Shown piece by piece: positions 955 to 45,852 of a stretch of DNA of 64,000 nt; positions within the stretch are counted from its first letter, which is position 1, and each line of letters starts with the position of its first letter. Under the pieces are notes generated by a model. The model did not search any database, had not been told where the DNA came from, and was given only the letters and a program-made list of their open reading frames with translations. Made by a program: the position numbers and the translations under genes. Location of the stretch: positions 21,120 through 85,119 of IMG/VR virus record IMGVR_UViG_3300033076_001357; one strand, given 5' to 3'. Source of the stretch: a virus. Lineage: Duplodnaviria; Caudoviricetes.

Positions 955-3684
955 CTACTCCGTGGCGCGGTCCCGGATCATCTGTGAGTACTTGATGGGG
1001 ATCTCCCGGTACCGCAGCCTGCCGCCGTCCGACAACCTGACCGGCTTACCGCTTCCCGAACAGCCGATGTTGGTGAGTTCGGACTGGATGGCGTCCTCGC
1101 TGGTCAGCGACTCGGTGCGGGAGTCGCGTTCCTTGCGGTCCTTCCAGCAGTCGGCCATCCTGGACACGTTCACCCAGAACGTCTCGGTCACCGCGTCCCA
1201 GAACACCGGCACGTTGACACCCGGGCTGGTCTTACGGTTGGTGACGTCGTTCATCCGGGTCTCGGGGAACAGGTGGGACCGCCACAGGGTCGGGATCATC
1301 TGCAGCACCACCACGCTGGCGTTGCCGAGGTCCTCCTGGTCCCCGATCCAGTTGCGCACCCGGTCGACGTGGAACCCGTCACCGGTGAGCTTGTCCAGCA
1401 CCATGGCCCCCATCAGTATCAGGCTGTCGGTCTGGGACCTGCGGGACGAGGTCTTGTTCAGCCCCTTGAGCTGGCTCAGCATCGGGGCCAGTTCGATGAT
1501 ACCCGCCACCAGCGAACCCGCGATCTGGGTGTAGTCGCGGTTGAACCTGCCGAACCACAGTTCCTGGACGTCGTCCCACTGGGGTCGGGTGGGGTCCTTG
1601 AAAGACATCCGTCCCTTGGGGTCGGGGAAGTGCACCGCCACCATGCGGTCGCGGTTGGCCTTCTGGCTGTTGAAGAAGGTTCCCAGGCCTTCGGACGAGA
1701 TGGCGGCGCTGGCCCGGAACCTGGTCACCTGCAGCTTGGACAGGTCGGACACGTCCCGGTTGGTGGCGTCGCCCCCCGTCGCCGCCTGCCGCAACAGCTC
1801 CTGGATGTCACCGGCCAGCCCGTCGCAGTCGTCGAACCACACGATGCCGGACGCGTTGGCGCCCAGCGCGGTCCTGGCCGTGGCCTTGGTCCAGCCGCCG
1901 CCCGTGCCGGTGTGCCCGACCAGCGAGAACACCTGCTCCAGAAACTTGGACTTACCGGACTCGGCGGTCCCGTCCACCTTCAGGATGGGAAACACCGGCA
2001 GGTTCAGGTGACCGCGCAGCACGGACATCACAGCCCAGGACCCGACCACGGAGGCCGCTGTCTCGTCGTGGAAGGTCAGCACCTCCCGGAACACGTCGAC
2101 AGCGCCCCTGACGCCGACGACGGACCCGTACCGGCTGCGGGAGTGCTCAATGGCGAACTTGGTGGGGCGAACCTTGGTGAAGGGCTCGATGGCGGACAGC
2201 CCCGGGGTGATTACCCCCTGGTCCGCCACGAACACCCCAGCCTTCTCGTTCCACCCAAGGTGGCTGACGATCTCGCACCGGGGCGGGTTCTGCGACATCA
2301 GCAGAGCCTGCATCCGGGTACCAGCGTCTCCCTTGTCGGTATTGTTGGGGTTGTTGTACCGCAGCAGGCCGCCGTGGCCCATGACCCACCGTTTCAGAGC
2401 GGCGTTGTTGGCGAGAACGTCGGAGGTGATCTCCCGGTCCCGCTTGACTGTGCCGTCCTTGGTGATGAAATCCACGATCCAGGTGATGACCCCGTCGTCC
2501 TCGTAGACGCTGGTGGCCCGCAGCTTGAAATCGCTGAATACTGCGGTGAGGGCCTTGTGCTGCCTACCCTCTTCGTCGACGTACGATTCTCTGATCAACG
2601 CCTCGTATCCAAACTCCTCGATGCGGTCACGAAGGTGACCGTTGTCTTCAGAGAAGTCCAGAACAACGCTGCTGTCAACCTTGACGGGGCCGGACGGCAC
2701 CTCCACCACCGTACCCAGCCGGGTAGACGCGGCCAGGTTGAGGTGGGCCACGGCCTTCCGGTCGGGGTGGTTCTTCCGCTCCAGCTTGAAGATGGACCCC
2801 CACGTCGCCTCAAGGCGGGAGGACTCGTGGGGCTGGTCGGACATCATGTCTACCGCCCGGACGAACCCGATGGCCTCGTCCTCCTGGAGAAGCCCGGCGG
2901 CCACGGAGGGGGCCAGCATCCCGCAGATCCGGGCCAGCCAGTCGTTCCCCCGGTCCGGGTCGTCCGACATCAGCTCCAGCAGAGCCTTCTTGGACCGGCT
3001 GGAACCGTCGGCGGACGACCGGCCGGTCTTGGCGGCGACCAGAGACCACGCCTCGGGGTTGTCCACCCACAGGTCGGGGAGGAAAGTAAGGTCGTCGGCT
3101 CGCGGGGGCGCGCTGGCCTCCTCCCCCTCCGGGGTGAACCACTGGTACCGCAGGCCGTCCTCGTCGATCACGGAGGGCCACACCACCGAGTACCGGTGGC
3201 TGAACTGGATGACGTCGATGTCGGTAGCGGCCTTGGTGGGCCACTGCCTGCCGGGGGGAACCCGGTAGAACCTGATGCGGGAGTCGCCCCACCCCCGGCG
3301 GGTCGACGACCAGGTGGGCGGCAGGGGGCACACCCTGGCCTCCAGCTCGGCCAGCTGGTCCGCGCCCCGTTTGGCGCCGTAGTGATCGACGTCGATTCCG
3401 ACGACCCCGTCGGGGAGGCGCAGTCCGATGTTGCCGGACCAGGTGGCCACGTCTCCGGCGGCAGGCCAGCGCCCGTCGTATCCGGTGTACCCGTTGGGGG
3501 GCGGGGACTTCTTGCCCGAGGGAAGTACGATGGTTCCGGACCAGCCCGCCTGTCGGTACAGGTCGGCCGCTCGCTGGAACGGGGTTTGCTCTTCAGGCAC
3601 CTCTGTGTTAGACTCGGAGCGGGTGATCGGATGGTCAGGGCCCAGCGGAGGACGGATCCGCTGGGCCTCATTCATTTCTGTCAT
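955..3684 (-). CDS. Bifunctional DNA primase/polymerase fused to a P-loop helicase-like domain
   Basis: N-terminal prim-pol motifs (NIGLRLPDGVVGIDVD...RIRFYRVP); C-terminal Walker A GTAESGKS and a Walker B-like WFDD. Confidence 0.85.
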   Translation of the reverse strand: MTEMNEAQRIRPPLGPDHPITRSESNTEVPEEQTPFQRAADLYRQAGWSGTIVLPSGKKSPPPNGYTGYDGRWPAAGDVATWSGNIGLRLPDGVVGIDVDHYGAKRGADQLAELEARVCPLPPTWSSTRRGWGDSRIRFYRVPPGRQWPTKAATDIDVIQFSHRYSVVWPSVIDEDGLRYQWFTPEGEEASAPPRADDLTFLPDLWVDNPEAWSLVAAKTGRSSADGSSRSKKALLELMSDDPDRGNDWLARICGMLAPSVAAGLLQEDEAIGFVRAVDMMSDQPHESSRLEATWGSIFKLERKNHPDRKAVAHLNLAASTRLGTVVEVPSGPVKVDSSVVLDFSEDNGHLRDRIEEFGYEALIRESYVDEEGRQHKALTAVFSDFKLRATSVYEDDGVITWIVDFITKDGTVKRDREITSDVLANNAALKRWVMGHGGLLRYNNPNNTDKGDAGTRMQALLMSQNPPRCEIVSHLGWNEKAGVFVADQGVITPGLSAIEPFTKVRPTKFAIEHSRSRYGSVVGVRGAVDVFREVLTFHDETAASVVGSWAVMSVLRGHLNLPVFPILKVDGTAESGKSKFLEQVFSLVGHTGTGGGWTKATARTALGANASGIVWFDDCDGLAGDIQELLRQAATGGDATNRDVSDLSKLQVTRFRASAAISSEGLGTFFNSQKANRDRMVAVHFPDPKGRMSFKDPTRPQWDDVQELWFGRFNRDYTQIAGSLVAGIIELAPMLSQLKGLNKTSSRRSQTDSLILMGAMVLDKLTGDGFHVDRVRNWIGDQEDLGNASVVVLQMIPTLWRSHLFPETRMNDVTNRKTSPGVNVPVFWDAVTETFWVNVSRMADCWKDRKERDSRTESLTSEDAIQSELTNIGCSGSGKPVRLSDGGRLRYREIPIKYSQMIRDRATE

Positions 3685-3916: not shown

Positions 3917-3998
3917 CAGTCATCACCTCCTTGTGACGGACGGGGCGTGAGAGAATCCTACACCTGCGTAGGGGCGGTCCTACATTTTTTCTACGGGG

Positions 3999-4101
3999 GA
4001 GGCCGCCGGAGGGGTCTCCGGCGGCCTCGTAGGAGCAGGACGGCCCCGGGAGGCCCGGGCGGGCCGTACGCTTGCGGGAGATACCGTCCCGGGCCGGGAC
4101 G
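3999..4101. repeat. Conserved element, copy 2
   Basis: See 824-926. Confidence 0.9.
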
Positions 4102-4104
4102 AGC

Positions 4105-4353
4105 CTACTCCGTGGGAGCGGGAGCCGCCGGGGGGTTCCGCCGGATCACCAGGTCGTCCAGGGAGCAGCCCAGCGCGTCGGCCAGGTTGGTCATGGACGC
4201 CACGGTAGGGGTGCGTCGGCCGTTCTCCCAGCCTGACACCAGCGTACGGTCGGTGCCCACCATGCGGGCCAGCTTCGACACCGACAGCGGGTTGCCGTCC
4301 GCGTCCTTCAGGTCCTTGCGGAGCCGGGTCATGGCCTCCGGGTTGAACGTCAT
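4105..4353 (-). CDS. XRE/Cro-family HTH regulator (paralogue of 3716-3916)
   Basis: VSKLARMVGTDRTLVSGWENGRRTP...LADALGCSLDDL. Confidence 0.85.
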   Translation of the reverse strand: MTFNPEAMTRLRKDLKDADGNPLSVSKLARMVGTDRTLVSGWENGRRTPTVASMTNLADALGCSLDDLVIRRNPPAAPAPTE

Positions 4354-6024: not shown

Positions 6025-6096
6025 TGCCACCAACAGGACTCGAACCTGTGCCTCGGCTGTTTCAGAGCCGCGCTCTACCAACTGAGCTATGGTGGC
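6025..6096 (-). tRNA. tRNA-Phe (GAA)
   Basis: Full cloverleaf: GCCACCA/TGGTGGC, D-arm GCTC-AGTTGGTA-GAGC, CGGCT-CTGAAAC-AGCCG, T-loop TTCGAGT; CCA not encoded. Confidence 0.92.
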
Positions 6097-6150
6097 GGAT
6101 GGAAAGCGGCAGTTATCGCCGCGCCACTCCGCAAACGATAACTGCCGCAG

Positions 6151-6238
6151 TGTGCCGGACGGGAATCGAACCCGCATCTGTGAGTGTCTCAGCCAGGTCC
6201 TACCTCTGGCTTCACCGTCTTACTTAGACCACCGGCAC
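6151..6238 (-). ncRNA. tRNA-like RNA with an extra hairpin in place of the anticodon loop
   Basis: Acceptor GTGCCGG/CCGGCAC-A, D-like GTCT/AGAC, T-arm GCGGG-TTCGATT-CCCGT; the anticodon arm carries AGCCAG-AGGTAGGAC-CTGGCT. Confidence 0.65.
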
Positions 6239-6287
6239 CGCCCGGCTCCTAGGCGCCGGGCCAGGTCGGGTGTGCCTTCCCGACCAG

Positions 6288-6418
6288 TGAGCGGGGCAGG
6301 AATCGAACCTACCTAGGCGGGCTGCCGCCCTATTTGCCTCCAAGGTGAAGGGGAATCGAACCCCACACCCCACCCAGGGGAACCCGGAATCGAACCGGAT
6401 ACCTTATCCACTCCGCTC
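6288..6418 (-). ncRNA. Structured RNA with three identical GGTTCGATTCC T-loop hairpins closed by GAGCGG/CCGCTC
   Basis: Hand folding of the reverse complement. Confidence 0.6.
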
Positions 6419-6441
6419 TCGCTGTTGAGTTGTTGTGCTAG

Positions 6442-6517
6442 TGGACCCGGCGGGATTCGAACCCGCTACGCGCGCTATCACCAGCCGCCGGGTGCACATC
6501 CGGCAGACGACGGGCCC
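6442..6517 (-). ncRNA. 76-nt tRNA-like RNA with non-canonical D and anticodon arms
   Basis: Acceptor GGGCCCG/CGGGTCC-A and T-arm GCGGG-TTCGAAT-CCCGC are intact; the middle does not fit a cloverleaf. Confidence 0.55.
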
Positions 6518-6524
6518 AGGAACG

Positions 6525-6689
6525 TTAGTTGGTCTTGACGGGCTTCTTGCACTTACCCCGACCACAGGGGGCCGGGTCGTGGCGCTGGCCGCACGGCCGG
6601 ACCTTCCACGCCTTGCCGCTACGGCGCTCGGTGTTGGTGGCGACGGCGACGGCCTTCTTCCCGCCCCCGCCGGAGTTCTTCTTTGCCAC
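6525..6689 (-). CDS. 54-aa Lys/Arg-rich peptide with a C-terminal Cys/His cluster
   Basis: RBS AGAAAGGAG, GTG at 6689, TAA at 6525-6527; MAKKNSGGGGKKAVAVATNTERRSGKAWKVRPCGQRHDPAPCGRGKCKKPVKTN. Below the ORF-track cutoff. Confidence 0.65.
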   Translation of the reverse strand: MAKKNSGGGGKKAVAVATNTERRSGKAWKVRPCGQRHDPAPCGRGKCKKPVKTN

Positions 6690-6727
6690 GTGACGCTCCT
6701 TTCTGACGACTGACTGACACCACGGGG

Positions 6728-6851
6728 GGGACGGAGCGGGATTCGAACCCGCATCTGTTGCCAGGGACCGGGACAGCCCACCCGAGGAGATCCGCTCCCT
6801 TTGTGGGGCCCCTGACGTGCGCTTCCGCTCTACCGTTTGAGCTATCCGTCC
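6728..6851 (-). ncRNA. 124-nt tRNA-like RNA with canonical acceptor, D and T arms and a long nested hairpin replacing the anticodon arm
   Basis: GGACGGA/TCCGTCC; TA-GCTC-AAACGGTA-GAGC; GCGGG-TTCGAAT-CCCGC; insert closed by GTCAGGG/CCCTGGC. Confidence 0.7.
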
Positions 6852-6910
6852 AACCGGGACGCGACTTCCGCCGCGTCCCTAGCACCGGGGGGGGCTCGGT
6901 GCATACACCT

Positions 6911-6940
6911 ATTGTAGCATAGGACTTGTCTACGGCACAA
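6911..6940 (-). promoter_or_regulatory. Sigma70/HrdB-like promoter for the tRNA-like cluster
   Basis: TTGTGC-N18-TACAAT with an extended TG. Confidence 0.65.
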
Positions 6941-43822: not shown

Positions 43823-43906
43823 TGGTGCCGCCGGGGGGATTCGAACCCCCACGCCTAAGCACTAGTTCCTAAGACTAGCGTGTCTGCCAAGTTCCACCAC
43901 GGCGGC
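43823..43906 (-). tRNA. tRNA-Leu (TAG)
   Basis: GCCGCCG/CGGCGGC-A-CCA; CTAGT-CTTAGGA-ACTAG; long variable arm. Confidence 0.93.
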
Positions 43907-43911
43907 CTGAA

Positions 43912-43984
43912 TCGGGACGGGGGGACTCGAACCCCCGACAACCCGCTCCCAAAGCGGGTGTCCTAGCCGCTGGACCACGTCCCG
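43912..43984 (-). tRNA. tRNA-Pro (TGG)
   Basis: CGGGACG/CGTCCCG; CCCGC-TTTGGGA-GCGGG; T-loop TTCGAGT. Confidence 0.93.
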
Positions 43985-43985
43985 G

Positions 43986-44059
43986 TCGACCCCCCAGGAG
44001 TTGAACCTGGTACCTTCACCTTATCAGGGTGACGCTCTACCTGCTTGAGCTAGAGGTCG
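43986..44059 (-). tRNA. tRNA-Ile (GAT)
   Basis: CGACCTC/GGGGTCG; TCACC-CTGATAA-GGTGA; T-loop TTCAACT. Confidence 0.92.
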
Positions 44060-44097
44060 TGGCGCCCGACGGGGACCATATCCATTCCCCGCCGGGC
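44060..44097 (-). ncRNA. Minihelix-like RNA: 12-bp stem plus G-CCA, abutting the tRNA-Ile 5' end
   Basis: GCCCGGCGGGGA-ATGGATATGG-TCCCCGTCGGGC-G-CCA. Confidence 0.55.
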
Positions 44098-44131
44098 TTT
44101 TAAAACGATAATCGTCGTTTAGAGGTCTACC

Positions 44132-44300
44132 ACCCGATCAAGCACATTTAAAGACACCGGTCACGCCTCACGCAATACCGCTATACCATTAAGCGTACCC
44201 GACCGAGGATGGTTCTGCTCAGTTAAGAGCCGAGGTCGGGGCGGGAGTCGAACCCGCAACTTATTGCAACAGCCAATGTCTGGTCGATCTCGATGGGGGC
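44132..44300 (-). ncRNA. Circularly permuted tRNA-like module 2 (YrlA/Y-RNA-like topology)
   Basis: T-arm 44257-44241, then CCCGACC...GGTCGGG, then TA plus D-arm CGCT-TAATGGTAT-AGCG; ends pair via GCAATA/TATTGC, AGACATTGG/CCGGTGTCT and ATCGAG/CTTGAT. Confidence 0.75.
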
Positions 44301-44337
44301 GTACTGCTGAGTCTAGAGCGATAGCCTTAGTCTTTTT

Positions 44338-44423
44338 GCCTGGTCGCTGCCTCTGCTTTGGGCTACCCGGGCTCGATTGGTGCCCGGGGCAGGTCTCGCA
44401 CCTGCACTGTAACGATGTCGGCG
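44338..44423 (-). ncRNA. Circularly permuted tRNA-like module 1
   Basis: T-like arm GCAGG-TGCGAGA-CCTGC, then CCCGGGC-ACCAATCGA-GCCCGGG, then TA plus GCC-CAAAGCAGA-GGC; closing TCGTT/AGCGA. Confidence 0.7.
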
Positions 44424-44532
44424 TGAGTCTGTAGCTTCAGTCTGAGACTCTTACCCGGTCGCTCAAACCGGGGGAGCGGCGTTCGTCACGGGTACGAACA
44501 CCACCCTCCGACCTGAGTGAGCGAGGCTCGTG

Positions 44533-45270
44533 TCAGCTGAACAGCAGCCAGCCCAGAACGGCCTGACCGATGTGCTGCTGCGTGACCTGGACGGAGTTGG
44601 CCTCCTCGCGCGCGTGCTTGACGGCGTCCTGGAGAAGGTGAACCCGGTTCAGCAGCTGATCGACCCGGGCGGCCGGAACCGCTCCGGAGAACTTGGTGAG
44701 GGTCCAGTACCCCACCGTCTGGTCCTCAGAGTAGACCTCGACCTGCGCCGGGTGGCGGTCGGTGGCCTCGGCCTTGACGTGGTTGCGGAAGACCTTCTTG
44801 GTCTTGTTGGTCTCGATCGGCTCGGTCTTCCACAGGTTGAGCTGGTCGTCGAACCGCCAGCTCTCGGCCGGGTCGAGAGTGGGGAGCTTCGCCAGGAAGG
44901 TGGCGATGTTCACCAGCTGCTTCTCCAGGAACAGCAGGTAGGTGACCGGCACCGCGTGGGCCAGCACCGCCCCGCCTACCACCACGTCGGCCACGGCCGA
45001 CTGGTTGGCGGTCTCCTTGGTGTAGGTGACGTCGAACAGGTTGACCAGACTGTCGGCCACCTTCCGGATGACGTCGTCGACTCGGACCTGGACCTTGACC
45101 GACTCGGGCGGGTAGACGTCCCCGTCCTCGAACTTCGGTCGGTAGGTCCGGCTCAGACCAGAGGTCAGCGCGGACTTCTGAAGCTGGTGGTGAGCGGCGG
45201 TCAGTTCCTTCTCGGTGCGGCTCTTGACGCCGCTCTCGGCGGCAATGATCTGGTTGAGTCGAGTCGACAT
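44533..45270 (-). CDS. 245-aa hypothetical protein directly upstream of the permuted tRNA-like RNAs
   Basis: Clean codon usage and its own promoter (45316-45345). Motifs RLNQIIA, VPVTYLLFLEKQL and RNHVKAEATDRHPAQVEVY resemble a family I recall from Actinobacteria (unverified). Confidence 0.85.
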   Translation of the reverse strand: MSTRLNQIIAAESGVKSRTEKELTAAHHQLQKSALTSGLSRTYRPKFEDGDVYPPESVKVQVRVDDVIRKVADSLVNLFDVTYTKETANQSAVADVVVGGAVLAHAVPVTYLLFLEKQLVNIATFLAKLPTLDPAESWRFDDQLNLWKTEPIETNKTKKVFRNHVKAEATDRHPAQVEVYSEDQTVGYWTLTKFSGAVPAARVDQLLNRVHLLQDAVKHAREEANSVQVTQQHIGQAVLGWLLFS

Positions 45271-45315
45271 CAGTCTGGTGCTCCAGCTTGTCCCTGCTTG
45301 CTGCTTACAGGGACA

Positions 45316-45345
45316 AGTATACCACGCCACATGCCGCTGGCGCAA
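45316..45345 (-). promoter_or_regulatory. Sigma70-like promoter of the protein + ncRNA + tRNA cassette
   Basis: TTGCGC-N18-TATACT with TGG extension; insulated upstream by a 12-bp hairpin at 45348-45374. Confidence 0.7.
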
Positions 45346-45381: not shown

Positions 45382-45852
45382 TCAGCCGGTCAGCTCCTCC
45401 AGGTCCAGCCCCTGCCGGGCCAGTTCCTCGGTAAGCGCGGCGATCTGGCTGTCGATCTGGTCCATGGTGGTGATCTCAAGCTTGGTGGTGGCGTCCAGAC
45501 CCAGTAGCTTGGCCCGGCGCTCACACAGCTTGATGGCGATCTCCACCGCCCGGGGCACTCCCCGCTGGATACCCGGGTTCAGAGCCAGCAGCATCTGGTC
45601 CAGCCTGCGCAGCTCGATCTCACGGTAGATGTCCACCGCGTGATCCTGGGCGACGATGGACTGTTCCAGCGCCCTGTTGATGTCCAGGCTGGCCGCCCGG
45701 ACGTTCGGGTACTCCAGGGCCAGGGTGATGGCCTCCAGACTGTACCCGTCGACTCGCATCTGTACCGCCTGGGCCCTACGGTCGGCGGTCTGGGCGCTGA
45801 TAGCGGTCTGAACCGTGGCGGTGGCCCCCTCAGGGGGCATCTTACGTGGCAT
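45382..45852 (-). CDS. Terminase small subunit-like protein
   Basis: N-terminal HTH (RRAQAVQMRVDGYSLEAI), ELRRLDQM, ERRAKLLGLDA. Confidence 0.75.
   Translation of the reverse strand: MPRKMPPEGATATVQTAISAQTADRRAQAVQMRVDGYSLEAITLALEYPNVRAASLDINRALEQSIVAQDHAVDIYREIELRRLDQMLLALNPGIQRGVPRAVEIAIKLCERRAKLLGLDATTKLEITTMDQIDSQIAALTEELARQGLDLEELTG

What the first reader, a model, noticed from the sequence alone, without database searches (positions are those of the whole stretch)
44132..45345. Candidate new system: a 245-aa protein co-transcribed with tandem circularly permuted tRNA-like RNAs
Seen: one promoter (45316-45345) drives a 245-aa ORF. Its stop is followed by about 400 nt of non-coding sequence with two modules in the order T-arm, acceptor 3' strand, loop, acceptor 5' strand, TA, D-arm. 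Module 1 pairs CCCGGGC/GCCCGGG and module 2 pairs CCCGACC/GGTCGGG, each 7/7. In module 2 the RNA ends zip into an anticodon-position stem extended by two more helices. Reading the halves as an ordinary tRNA (GCCCGGG with CCCGACC) gives two mismatches. Established: this topology is that of bacterial YrlA Y RNAs, two-piece tmRNA precursors and permuted tRNA genes. Y RNAs normally pair with a Ro60/Rsr (TROVE) protein, and none is encoded in this window. Inference: the upstream protein may be the RNA partner, forming a phage RNP that mimics or decoys tRNA. I recall similar proteins in Actinobacteria but have not verified this.
Basis: partly seen in the sequence, partly recalled or inferred. Interest (0 to 1): 0.92.

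Follow-up and report, generated by a model that had tools for sequence, protein, structure and literature searches.

The report
Two-headed tRNA-mimic RNA beside DUF7873
This phage carries an unstudied protein gene (DUF7873) followed by one folded RNA of about 450 bases with two back-to-front, anticodon-less tRNA look-alikes; the same gene-RNA pair recurs in half of the sampled Streptomyces species, in other bacterial phyla and in many phages without the Ro60 protein such RNAs normally serve, so it is probably an undescribed RNA-protein system.

Summary
A 245-aa gene (45270-44533, minus strand; Pfam DUF7873, E 2.5e-101) is followed by about 450 nt of structured RNA. The RNA holds two circularly permuted tRNA-like modules, each with a 7/7 acceptor stem closed by a loop. 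The modules are two domains of one RNA, not two tandem RNAs.

It is absent from Rfam. The closest family, YrlA, scores 30.9 bits against a cut-off of 69. No TROVE/Ro60 gene occurs in this 85-kb phage or in two complete related phage genomes.

Linkage is very strong. My covariance model finds the full RNA next to the gene in 148 of 165 loci. All 55 DUF7873-positive genomes among 101 Streptomyces have it. Forty-five of 46 predicted base pairs show compensatory changes.

In four Myxococcota loci the RNA lies on the opposite strand. The pairing therefore does not depend on co-transcription.

The protein has no known fold, fusion partner or published study.

The scan has met the same pair before, with 155 notes in at least 90 genomes. 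Best reading: a Ro60-independent, Y-RNA-like ribonucleoprotein built on tRNA mimicry. Its function is unknown.

The parts
45316..45345 (-). Promoter-like element TTGCGC, 18 nt, TATACT upstream of the ORF (unverified)
   Evidence: Read directly. The consensus scan did not call it because the -35 element matches only 3 of 6 positions.
44533..45270 (-). DUF7873 gene, 245 aa (P0001)
   Evidence: Pfam PF25283 at 338.9 bits, E 2.5e-101, residues 3-243. The AF2 model has pLDDT 95.8 and no clear known fold.
44455..44509 (-). 5' hairpins of the RNA: a nested hairpin at 44509-44471, then hairpin CCGG-UUUGAGCGA-CCGG at 44471-44455. The GAGC-type loop of the second hairpin recurs in relatives.
   Evidence: alignment columns 1-60.
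44425..44449 (-). 5' strand of the hexamer-repeat (A-N-N-C-U-N) helix that closes module 1
   Evidence: At least 3 in-register hexamers occur in 91 of 106 relatives, against 2 of 106 shuffles. Pairing with the 3' repeats: U46-A238 in 37/41, A48-U236 in 38/41, U52-A232 in 40/41; C51-G233 covaries.
44349..44405 (-). Module 1, a permuted tRNA-like domain. Order: T-arm, 7-bp acceptor stem closed by loop A-CCA-AUCGA, UA, then a 3-bp D-stem with a 9-nt loop here (11 nt in most relatives). This is a class II, tRNA-Leu-like D-arm.
   Evidence: compensatory changes in all three helices; A at the discriminator position in 91/106; NCCA in 41/106; R1 partial hit 44405-44348.
44304..44333 (-). 3' strand of the hexamer-repeat helix, including the conserved UCGCU bulge
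44137..44294 (-). Module 2 with its three closing helices. Two conserved internal-loop motifs, AUCGACC (44288-44282) and UUAAAUGUG (44151-44143), sit in the closing stem. The core runs 44257-44179: T-arm, 7-bp acceptor stem with a 29-nt loop, UA, 4-bp D-arm.
   Evidence: Model R1 scores 107.4 bits over its full length at 44307-44083. YrlA model 30.9 bits, positions 1-114. Covariation. AUCGA is present in 92/106 relatives and UUAAAYG in 64/106.
44064..44120 (-). 3' hairpin (44120-44103) and terminal GC-rich hairpin (44097-44064). The terminal loop carries the family-conserved GGAUA motif. This is the likely 3' end or terminator and it abuts tRNA-Ile.
   Evidence: GGMUA is present in the tail of 72/106 relatives. 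No U-tract terminator was called.
43823..44059 (-). Context: ordinary tRNA-Ile(GAU), tRNA-Pro(UGG) and tRNA-Leu(UAG) genes directly downstream
   Evidence: ARAGORN. Rfam tRNA at 61.4, 65.6 and 55.6 bits.

Best explanation
The locus encodes a two-component system: the DUF7873 protein and a dedicated structured RNA of about 450 nt. The RNA presents two anticodon-less tRNA look-alikes (tRNA elbow plus a 7-bp acceptor stem) on long, irregular helical stalks.

Proposed mechanism, all of it inferred: DUF7873 binds the family-specific stalk elements. These are the AUCGAC/UUAAACG internal loop and the periodic hexamer helix. The binding would parallel the way Ro60 binds the stem of a Y RNA. The two tRNA-like heads would then recruit or occupy factors that recognise tRNA shape, such as RNase P, the CCA-adding enzyme, modification enzymes, possibly LeuRS, or host tRNA-targeting proteins.

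The 7-bp acceptor stems and the encoded A-CCA make RNase P nicking into CCA-ended pieces plausible. This is what happens to Mycobacterium smegmatis YrlA.

What is shown: the anatomy, the covariation, the near-obligate linkage and the independence from Ro60. What is inferred: physical binding, processing and the biological role. Phages carry the pair inside tRNA gene clusters, which points to a role in tRNA or translation biology during infection.
For: - Protein family: DUF7873, E 2.5e-101. There are 2280 clusters at 50% identity and more than 5400 proteins.
- RNA structure: 45 of 46 predicted pairs carry compensatory changes. On the module-1 alignment the covariation score is 0.322 against 0.143 in shuffles, reached by 0 of 500 shuffles.
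- Linkage in collected loci: full-length R1 hits lie next to the gene in 88/95 and 60/70 loci.
- Linkage in sampled Streptomyces: protein and RNA both present in 55 genomes; protein without RNA in 0; RNA without protein in 3 (G027 checked, a truncated copy); neither in 43.
- Distant phage homologues at about 30% identity (Klebsiella, Rhizobium, Vibrio, Ralstonia) still have permuted modules just downstream.
- Linkage survives strand inversion in 4 Myxococcota loci. It is therefore not a by-product of co-transcription.
- No TROVE gene in this phage, in Talia1610 or in GodonK, nor in 3 of 5 complete bacterial genomes that carry the pair. In the other two, TROVE lies more than 100 kb away.
- Flanking protein genes differ in the three bacterial loci read. 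The gene-RNA pair is what those loci share.
- Precedent: a YrlA with a 7-bp acceptor stem is cut by RNase P and receives CCA in vivo (PMC4201824).
Against: - There is no binding, expression or processing datum.
- The protein is not basic. Its pI is 6.7, and the median over 74 members is 6.2. Its most conserved polar residues are acidic or His, which could fit an enzyme better than a plain RNA-binding scaffold.
- The protein has no recognisable RNA-binding fold.
- Exceptions to the pairing exist. Two near-identical viral contigs (L117, L118) and one Myxococcota locus (L179) have the gene but no detectable RNA. At least one genome (G027) keeps an orphan RNA fragment.
- An earlier check within this scan priced the binding claim at only 22/100 (e1-2703945).
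Confidence: 0.5

Rival explanations
1. Enzyme plus RNA substrate or cofactor. DUF7873 would be a catalytic protein that processes or modifies this RNA, or that uses it as a tRNA-shaped guide to act on real tRNAs. It would not be a passive Ro60-like scaffold.
For: The conserved residues are rich in Asp, Glu and His: E56, D80, E116, K117, D133, D141, H173, D183, R221, E222. The pI is near neutral. The sequence is unusually conserved for a scaffold, with mean column identity of 82% across 18 sequences drawn mainly from actinobacteria plus Ktedonobacter.
Against: No similarity to any known enzyme fold or Pfam catalytic family. No fusion to or neighbourhood with RNA-repair enzymes.
Confidence: 0.2
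2. Conflict module. One option is a type III-like toxin-antitoxin or abortive-infection pair in which the structured RNA neutralises the protein. The other is a phage counter-defence decoy that soaks up host factors acting on the tRNA acceptor stem or elbow.
For: The distribution is patchy: 55/101 Streptomyces and 19/301 Myxococcota. The pair is present in many phages inside tRNA clusters. Chromosomal contexts vary. One genome holds an orphan truncated copy.
Against: Sequence conservation is far higher than is typical of defence genes, at about 60% identity across phyla. The RNA is not a tandem array of short repeats processed by the protein, as in ToxIN. No PADLOC search was run. The heads lack anticodon loops, so they cannot decoy anticodon nucleases.
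Confidence: 0.12
3. Cis element only. The RNA would be a structured 3' UTR that stabilises or regulates the DUF7873 mRNA, with no function in trans.
For: In all 165 actinobacterial and phage loci examined the RNA starts within about 100 nt of the stop codon on the same strand. No separate promoter was called in this window.
Against: Four Myxococcota loci have the RNA divergent from or convergent with the gene. The Klebsiella phage FBKp24 record annotates a promoter between gene and RNA. About 450 nt of covarying tRNA-like architecture is far more than a stabiliser needs.
Confidence: 0.05
4. A working split or permuted tRNA, or a two-piece tmRNA that takes part directly in translation.
For: Both acceptor stems are 7 bp. 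Module 1 has A at the discriminator position followed by CCA. Sub-threshold hits to permuted tmRNA models occur in relatives. Module 1 has a tRNA-Leu-like D-arm, and by established knowledge LeuRS does not read the anticodon.
Against: There is no anticodon arm. ARAGORN finds no tRNA or tmRNA here. Neither acceptor stem has a G3-U70 pair (read directly). tmRNA model scores are about 25 bits against cut-offs of 47-84. No ORF of 40 aa or more lies on the RNA strand.
Confidence: 0.04

Closest known systems
YrlA-type bacterial and phage Y RNAs with Ro60/Rsr (Rfam RF02553; Chen et al. 2014, PMC4201824; Wang et al. 2018, bioRxiv 10.1101/312249), especially the Mycobacterium smegmatis form
   Same: The arm order is the same: T-arm, loop-closed acceptor stem, UA, D-arm. 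The anticodon position opens into a long stem formed by the flanks. The RNA is encoded next to a dedicated protein gene and occurs in phages and actinobacteria. The 7-bp acceptor stem matches M. smegmatis YrlA, which RNase P cleaves and which receives CCA. The YrlA model aligns end to end with module 2.
   Different: The score is 30.9 bits against a gathering cut-off of 69. No Ro60/TROVE gene is present. The Ro60-binding GNCGAAN0-1G motif is not conserved at the equivalent site; AUCGAC/UUAAACG stands there instead. There are two tRNA-like heads in one RNA of about 450 nt, with a hexamer-repeat helix. The partner is a 245-aa protein of unknown fold, not a TROVE ring.
Two-piece (permuted) tmRNA with SmpB
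   Same: The gene order is permuted, with the T-arm and acceptor 3' strand ahead of the acceptor 5' strand. An NCCA is encoded inside the intervening loop. The element occurs in phage tRNA clusters.
   Different: There is no G3-U70 pair and no recognisable tag reading frame. Full D-stems are present. ARAGORN and the Rfam tmRNA models do not call it.
SPFH/Band-7-associated tRNA-like RNA predicted in RNA-repair operons
   Same: It shares the idea of a tRNA-like non-coding RNA partnered with a scaffold protein other than Ro60.
   Different: DUF7873 gives no Band_7 match in Pfam, and no SPFH chain appeared in the fold searches. The three bacterial and two phage neighbourhoods read show no RtcB or other RNA-repair gene.
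Type III toxin-antitoxin systems (ToxIN-like)
   Same: A protein gene is tightly linked to a structured, repeated non-coding RNA. Both are found in phages and bacteria.
   Different: The order is protein then RNA, not RNA then protein. The RNA is two dissimilar tRNA-like domains, not identical short repeats. The protein shows no similarity to ToxN-type endoRNases.

Membership tests
DUF7873 (Pfam PF25283) | Score above the curated Pfam cut-off over the whole domain | tested here: met
   338.9 bits against a cut-off of 27; residues 3-243 match profile positions 2-242 of 244.
YrlA (Rfam RF02553) | Reaches the Rfam gathering score | tested here: not met
   Module 2 scores 30.9 bits and module 1 scores 18.4 bits, against a gathering score of 69. 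The same model also matches 6 control genomes below the cut-off.
YrlA (Rfam RF02553) | Permuted tRNA-like domain (T-arm, loop-closed acceptor stem, D-arm) on a stem formed by the RNA's flanks | tested here: met
   Covariation.
YrlA (Rfam RF02553) | Encoded beside a Ro60/Rsr (TROVE) gene and bound by it | tested here: not met
   No PF05731 match in the 85-kb genome, in two complete related phages or in 3 of 5 bacterial genomes with the pair. Binding itself cannot be tested with these tools.
YrlA (Rfam RF02553) | Ro60-binding GNCGAAN0-1G motif on the 5' strand of the terminal helix (PMC4201824) | tested here: not met
   The motif is present somewhere in only 34 of 106 family RNAs and never at a fixed place on the module-2 stem. 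AUCGA stands there in 92 of 106.
Two-piece tmRNA | Recognised by ARAGORN or by the Rfam tmRNA models at threshold | tested here: not met
   ARAGORN finds none. Rfam gives no tmRNA hit in this region. Relatives give partial hits of 19-25 bits against cut-offs of 47-84.
Two-piece tmRNA | G3-U70 alanine identity pair in the acceptor stem | tested here: not met
   Read directly. Module 1 has C3-G70 and module 2 has U3-A70.
Two-piece tmRNA | Short tag reading frame with a resume codon | tested here: inconclusive
   No ORF of 40 aa or more lies on the RNA strand. Short frames were not analysed.
Permuted tRNA gene | Complete cloverleaf including an anticodon arm once the halves are joined | tested here: not met
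   The anticodon position opens into long helices in both modules. ARAGORN calls no tRNA here.
Type III toxin-antitoxin | Array of identical short RNA repeats upstream of an endoRNase toxin | tested here: not met
   The RNA lies downstream of the gene and consists of two dissimilar domains. The protein matches no known nuclease family. Toxicity was not tested.
SPFH/Band-7 scaffold with tRNA-like RNA | Partner protein has an SPFH/Band-7 domain | tested here: inconclusive
   No Band_7 match in Pfam at E up to 1. No SPFH chain is among the listed fold matches, but an unlisted family is not thereby excluded.

The most novel reading that the evidence does not exclude
DUF7873 and its two-headed RNA form a widespread, Ro60-independent ribonucleoprotein. 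RNase P nicks it into CCA-ended pieces, one of which may be chargeable through its tRNA-Leu-like head. Bacteria and phages would use it to interface with the tRNA-handling or translation machinery. This would be a third class of tRNA-mimic particle beside tmRNA-SmpB and Ro60-Y RNA.
Probability: 0.35. Interest if true: 0.88.

Novelty: new variant of a known kind. Interest (0 to 1): 0.77.

Why it matters
If the pair is a real particle, a protein family with thousands of members gains its first functional handle. The family is present in about half of the sampled Streptomyces species and in phages of actinobacteria, cyanobacteria and proteobacteria.

A large structured RNA would be added to the short list of bacterial tRNA mimics. 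It would also show that Y-RNA-like tRNA mimicry is not tied to Ro60.

For phage biology it would explain a conserved resident of phage tRNA gene clusters. Genome records currently annotate it as a gap, as a spurious small ORF or as a suppressor tRNA.

Tried and rejected

**Searches that gave nothing useful**
- Fold searches gave no clear relative. Foldseek PDB found nothing at E <= 0.001. In VIA-align wide the best hit was 3kdq, Z 9.2 but rmsd 7.7 A, which I do not trust. ESM Atlas returned only DUF7873 itself and unnamed viral proteins or DUF6847, TM about 0.5-0.65.
- The PDB sequence profile search found nothing.
- PHROGs gave no family for the protein.
- The search for longer, fused forms found only 2 likely gene-call artefacts in 5.8 billion proteins.
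- Literature: no paper mentions DUF7873. Burroughs and Aravind 2016 could not be read.
- A single-protein scan of viral contigs found nothing. The alignment-based scan did.

**Readings I rejected**
- Ordinary-order tRNA spanning both modules: rejected on pairing counts.
- A perfect canonical helix between the hexamer repeats: rejected. A strict diagonal search found none, and only an imperfect periodic helix is supported.
- A 4-bp pseudoknot AGUG/CGCU: dropped, because its last G is already the first base of the T-stem.
- R1 partial hits of about 48 bits elsewhere in Streptomyces genomes: the one locus inspected (L170) is two adjacent tRNA genes, not an extra copy.
Full report
**What is there**

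The window is part of an 85-kb viral record that CheckV rates 92% complete. All features below lie on the minus strand.

- An ORF runs 45270-44533 and encodes 245 aa (P0001).
- It matches Pfam DUF7873 end to end at 338.9 bits, E 2.5e-101. No PHROG family matches it.
- Downstream, from about 44509 to 44064, lies non-coding sequence. It ends exactly where tRNA-Ile, tRNA-Pro and tRNA-Leu genes begin.

In both, the T-arm comes first and the D-arm last, and UA occupies tRNA positions 8-9.

Reading module 1's 5' acceptor strand against module 2's 3' strand, which is the ordinary tRNA order, gives 5 of 7 pairs here. In 106 relatives it gives mostly 3-5 of 7. The permuted reading is therefore the right one.

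**Is it more than chance?**

I collected homologous loci from four sources:
- annotated phages;
- NCBI genomes;
- 80 species genomes;
- 70 IMG/VR contigs.

A strict pattern was scanned across them: a 5-bp T-stem, a T-loop of form U.YRA.., seven bases, a loop of 3-89 nt, then seven fully complementary bases. Results:

| Region scanned | Loci with a hit |
|---|---|
| Within 900 nt downstream, gene strand | 154 of 165 |
| Same stretch, opposite strand | 0 of 165 |
| Upstream, the two strands | 5 and 4 of 165 |

Most loci have two modules about 145 nt apart. Their D-arms differ consistently: 3 bp with an 11-nt loop in module 1, and 4 bp with a 7-nt loop in module 2.

A MAFFT alignment of 53 diverse RNAs (A3) was folded with RNAalifold. 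It gave 46 pairs, 45 of them with compensatory changes. These pairs cover both T-arms, both acceptor stems, both D-arms and two long-range helices that close module 2.

**One RNA, not two**

The alignment shows conserved elements well beyond the two modules.

- *5' hairpin.* Its loop is of the GAGC type.
- *Hexamer repeats.* A run of A-N-N-C-U-N hexamers lies on each side of module 1. At least 3 are in register upstream in 91 of 106 RNAs, against 2 of 106 shuffles.
- *Repeat helix.* The two runs pair as an imperfect, periodic helix. The invariant A and U residues face each other (U46-A238 in 37/41, A48-U236 in 38/41, U52-A232 in 40/41). C51-G233 covaries with U-A. Fixed positions remain unpaired.
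- *Internal loop on the module-2 stalk.* AUCGAC faces UUAAACG. AUCGA occurs in 92/106 RNAs and UUAAAYG in 64/106.
- *Terminal hairpin.* It is GC-rich with a GGAUA-type loop, seen in 72/106.

**Model R1 and the strength of linkage**

A covariance model of module 2 with its stalk (R1: 190 positions, 31 pairs) scores 107.4 bits on the window at 44307-44083.

Across the collected loci it finds full-length matches immediately next to the gene in 88 of 95 and 60 of 70 loci. Two more are cut by contig ends and several give partial matches.

- The loci without full-length matches are mostly ones with no flank, or the most distant proteobacterial phage homologues.
- Those phage homologues still show permuted modules by the pattern scan and by Rfam's YrlA or permuted-tmRNA models.
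- True exceptions are two near-identical viral contigs (L117, L118) and one Myxococcota locus (L179).

**Co-occurrence test in whole genomes**

I searched 101 Streptomyces species genomes with both the protein family and R1.

| | Full-length R1 hit | No full-length R1 hit |
|---|---|---|
| DUF7873 present (55) | 55 | 0 |
| DUF7873 absent (46) | 3 | 43 |

- In the coordinate pairs I compared, the RNA lies 150-400 nt beyond the gene.
- The one genome with two gene copies has two RNAs.
- Of the 3 protein-negative genomes with an R1 hit, the one whose sequence I read (G027) is a truncated copy holding module 2 only.

One caveat: the many 48-bit partial R1 hits elsewhere come from adjacent tRNA genes. 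In the locus inspected, the neighbouring halves imitate a permuted module.

**A new point: linkage does not need co-transcription**

In a sample of 301 Myxococcota genomes, 19 carry the gene. Of the 17 gene copies tblastn confirmed, 13 have a full-length RNA beside them.

- In four the RNA is on the opposite strand: two divergent (L182, L185) and two convergent (L184, L187).
- I confirmed this independently by tblastn and by the pattern scan.
- The RNA must have its own promoter there.
- Selection therefore keeps gene and RNA adjacent whatever their orientation.

This argues against a purely cis-acting 3' UTR and for a partner acting in trans.

**Relation to Y RNAs**

Rfam 15 has no family that reaches threshold here. 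The best is YrlA:

| Locus | YrlA score |
|---|---|
| Window, module 2 | 30.9 bits, aligned over all 114 positions |
| Window, module 1 | 18.4 bits |
| Relatives | 26-38 bits |
| Gathering cut-off | 69 bits |

YrlA RNAs are defined by their Ro60/Rsr partner.

- No TROVE domain is encoded in this phage.
- None is encoded in the complete genomes of Arthrobacter phage Talia1610 and Gordonia phage GodonK.
- None is encoded in 3 of 5 complete bacterial genomes with the pair. In the other two, TROVE lies more than 100 kb away.
- The Ro60-binding GNCGAAN0-1G motif described by Chen et al. (PMC4201824) is not conserved at the equivalent place.

So the RNA works like a YrlA in shape but fails the membership tests.

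**Hints of processing**

Both acceptor stems have 7 bp. Chen et al. singled out this feature to explain why M. smegmatis YrlA, alone among the Y RNAs they tested, is cut by RNase P and receives CCA in vivo.

- In module 1 the base after the acceptor 3' strand is A in 91 of 106 RNAs.
- The next three bases are CCA in 41 of 106. About 2 would be expected by chance.
- The window has A-CCA.
- Module 2 has NCCA in 27 of 106.
- The phage's own tRNA genes do not encode CCA.

In the more distant phage members I read, the D-arm of module 1 has the sequence signature of class II tRNA-Leu. By established knowledge, LeuRS does not read the anticodon. Nicking into CCA-ended pieces is therefore plausible but untested.

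**The protein**

- DUF7873 has more than 5400 relatives in the 90% clusters and 2280 clusters at 50% identity.
- It is always about 245 aa and has no informative fusions.
- It is highly conserved, at about 60% identity between this phage and Streptomyces, Ktedonobacter or Sorangium.
- The AlphaFold model is confident (pLDDT 95.8). It shows four long helices packed on a sheet with a long beta-hairpin.
- It matches no solved fold convincingly.
- Its Atlas neighbours are unnamed viral proteins and DUF6847.
- It is near neutral (pI 6.7), and many conserved residues are acidic or His. An enzymatic role is therefore as open as a scaffold role.
- No held paper mentions the family.

**Context**

In phages the pair sits inside or beside tRNA gene clusters. 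That holds here too, with three tRNA genes directly downstream. In the bacterial chromosomes I read, the neighbouring protein genes differ from locus to locus.

**Verdict**

The genetic partnership of DUF7873 with a two-headed tRNA-mimic RNA, independent of Ro60, is about as well supported as comparative genomics allows. Physical binding, processing and function remain inference.

The scan has reported the same pair many times on other DNA. A later check there accepted the observation but priced the binding claim low, for lack of any transcript or binding datum. My additions are:
- the genome-level presence/absence table;
- the opposite-strand loci;
- the NCCA and 7-bp acceptor statistics;
- the pairing model for the hexamer repeats.

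Noticed in passing
window 6025-6940 (minus strand): A second cluster of odd tRNA-like elements. There is a 124-nt match to the tRNA model (6728-6851, 44.5 bits), a partial tmRNA-model match (6439-6517, 30.3 bits against a cut-off of 47) and a weak tRNA-Sec-like match (6288-6376). They sit beside a normal tRNA-Phe and tRNA-Leu. R1 gives only an 18.7-bit match here.
   Followed up: partly
window 45382-45852 (minus strand): The gene just upstream of the DUF7873 unit (156 aa) matches phrog_645, labelled 'Rnase E', at E 1.1e-23. It has no Pfam family. The label is probably inherited annotation rather than a tested function.
   Followed up: partly
L007 3012-3091 (Klebsiella phage vB_KpM_FBKp24, MW394391.1): The public record annotates a 'tRNA-Sup-TTA' at 3012-3091, just downstream of its DUF7873 gene and overlapping the YrlA and R1 hits for a permuted module at 3045-3163. 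It also annotates a promoter between gene and RNA. The suppressor tRNA call may be a misreading of the mimic.
   Followed up: partly
L003 3994-4122 (Gordonia phage GodonK gene 151): A 42-codon reverse-strand ORF is annotated across module 2 of the RNA (R1 hit 3956-4143). It is likely a spurious gene call.
   Followed up: no
L006 2941-3150 (Microcoleus phage My-WqHQDG): A HEARO RNA (Rfam RF02033, 129 bits) lies directly after this phage's DUF7873 gene, where the tRNA-mimic RNA would be expected. It may be an insertion of an IS605-type element into the locus.
   Followed up: no
L171 1957-2145 (Streptomyces genome G027, contig 34): An orphan copy holds module 2 and the 3' hairpins only. No DUF7873 gene is present and the 5' half is missing, which suggests a decaying cassette.
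   Followed up: partly
L170 301-451 (Streptomyces genome G001): Two adjacent tRNA genes 5 nt apart score 38.5 bits with the YrlA model and 49.7 bits with R1. The T-arm and 3' end of the first, with the 5' end and D-arm of the second, imitate a permuted module. This is a general source of false positives for permuted-tRNA searches.
   Followed up: yes
L189-L192 (Myxococcota genomes G241, G206, G311, G261): Shorter proteins (172-281 aa reading frames) match only parts of the DUF7873 profile, at E 1e-14 to 1e-5, and have no R1 hit nearby.
   Followed up: no
L173 2-112 and 268-332 (Streptomyces genome G063): Two sub-threshold YrlA matches (39.8 and 33.9 bits) lie away from any DUF7873 gene. They could be genuine Ro60-linked YrlA RNAs. 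The neighbourhood was not examined.
   Followed up: no
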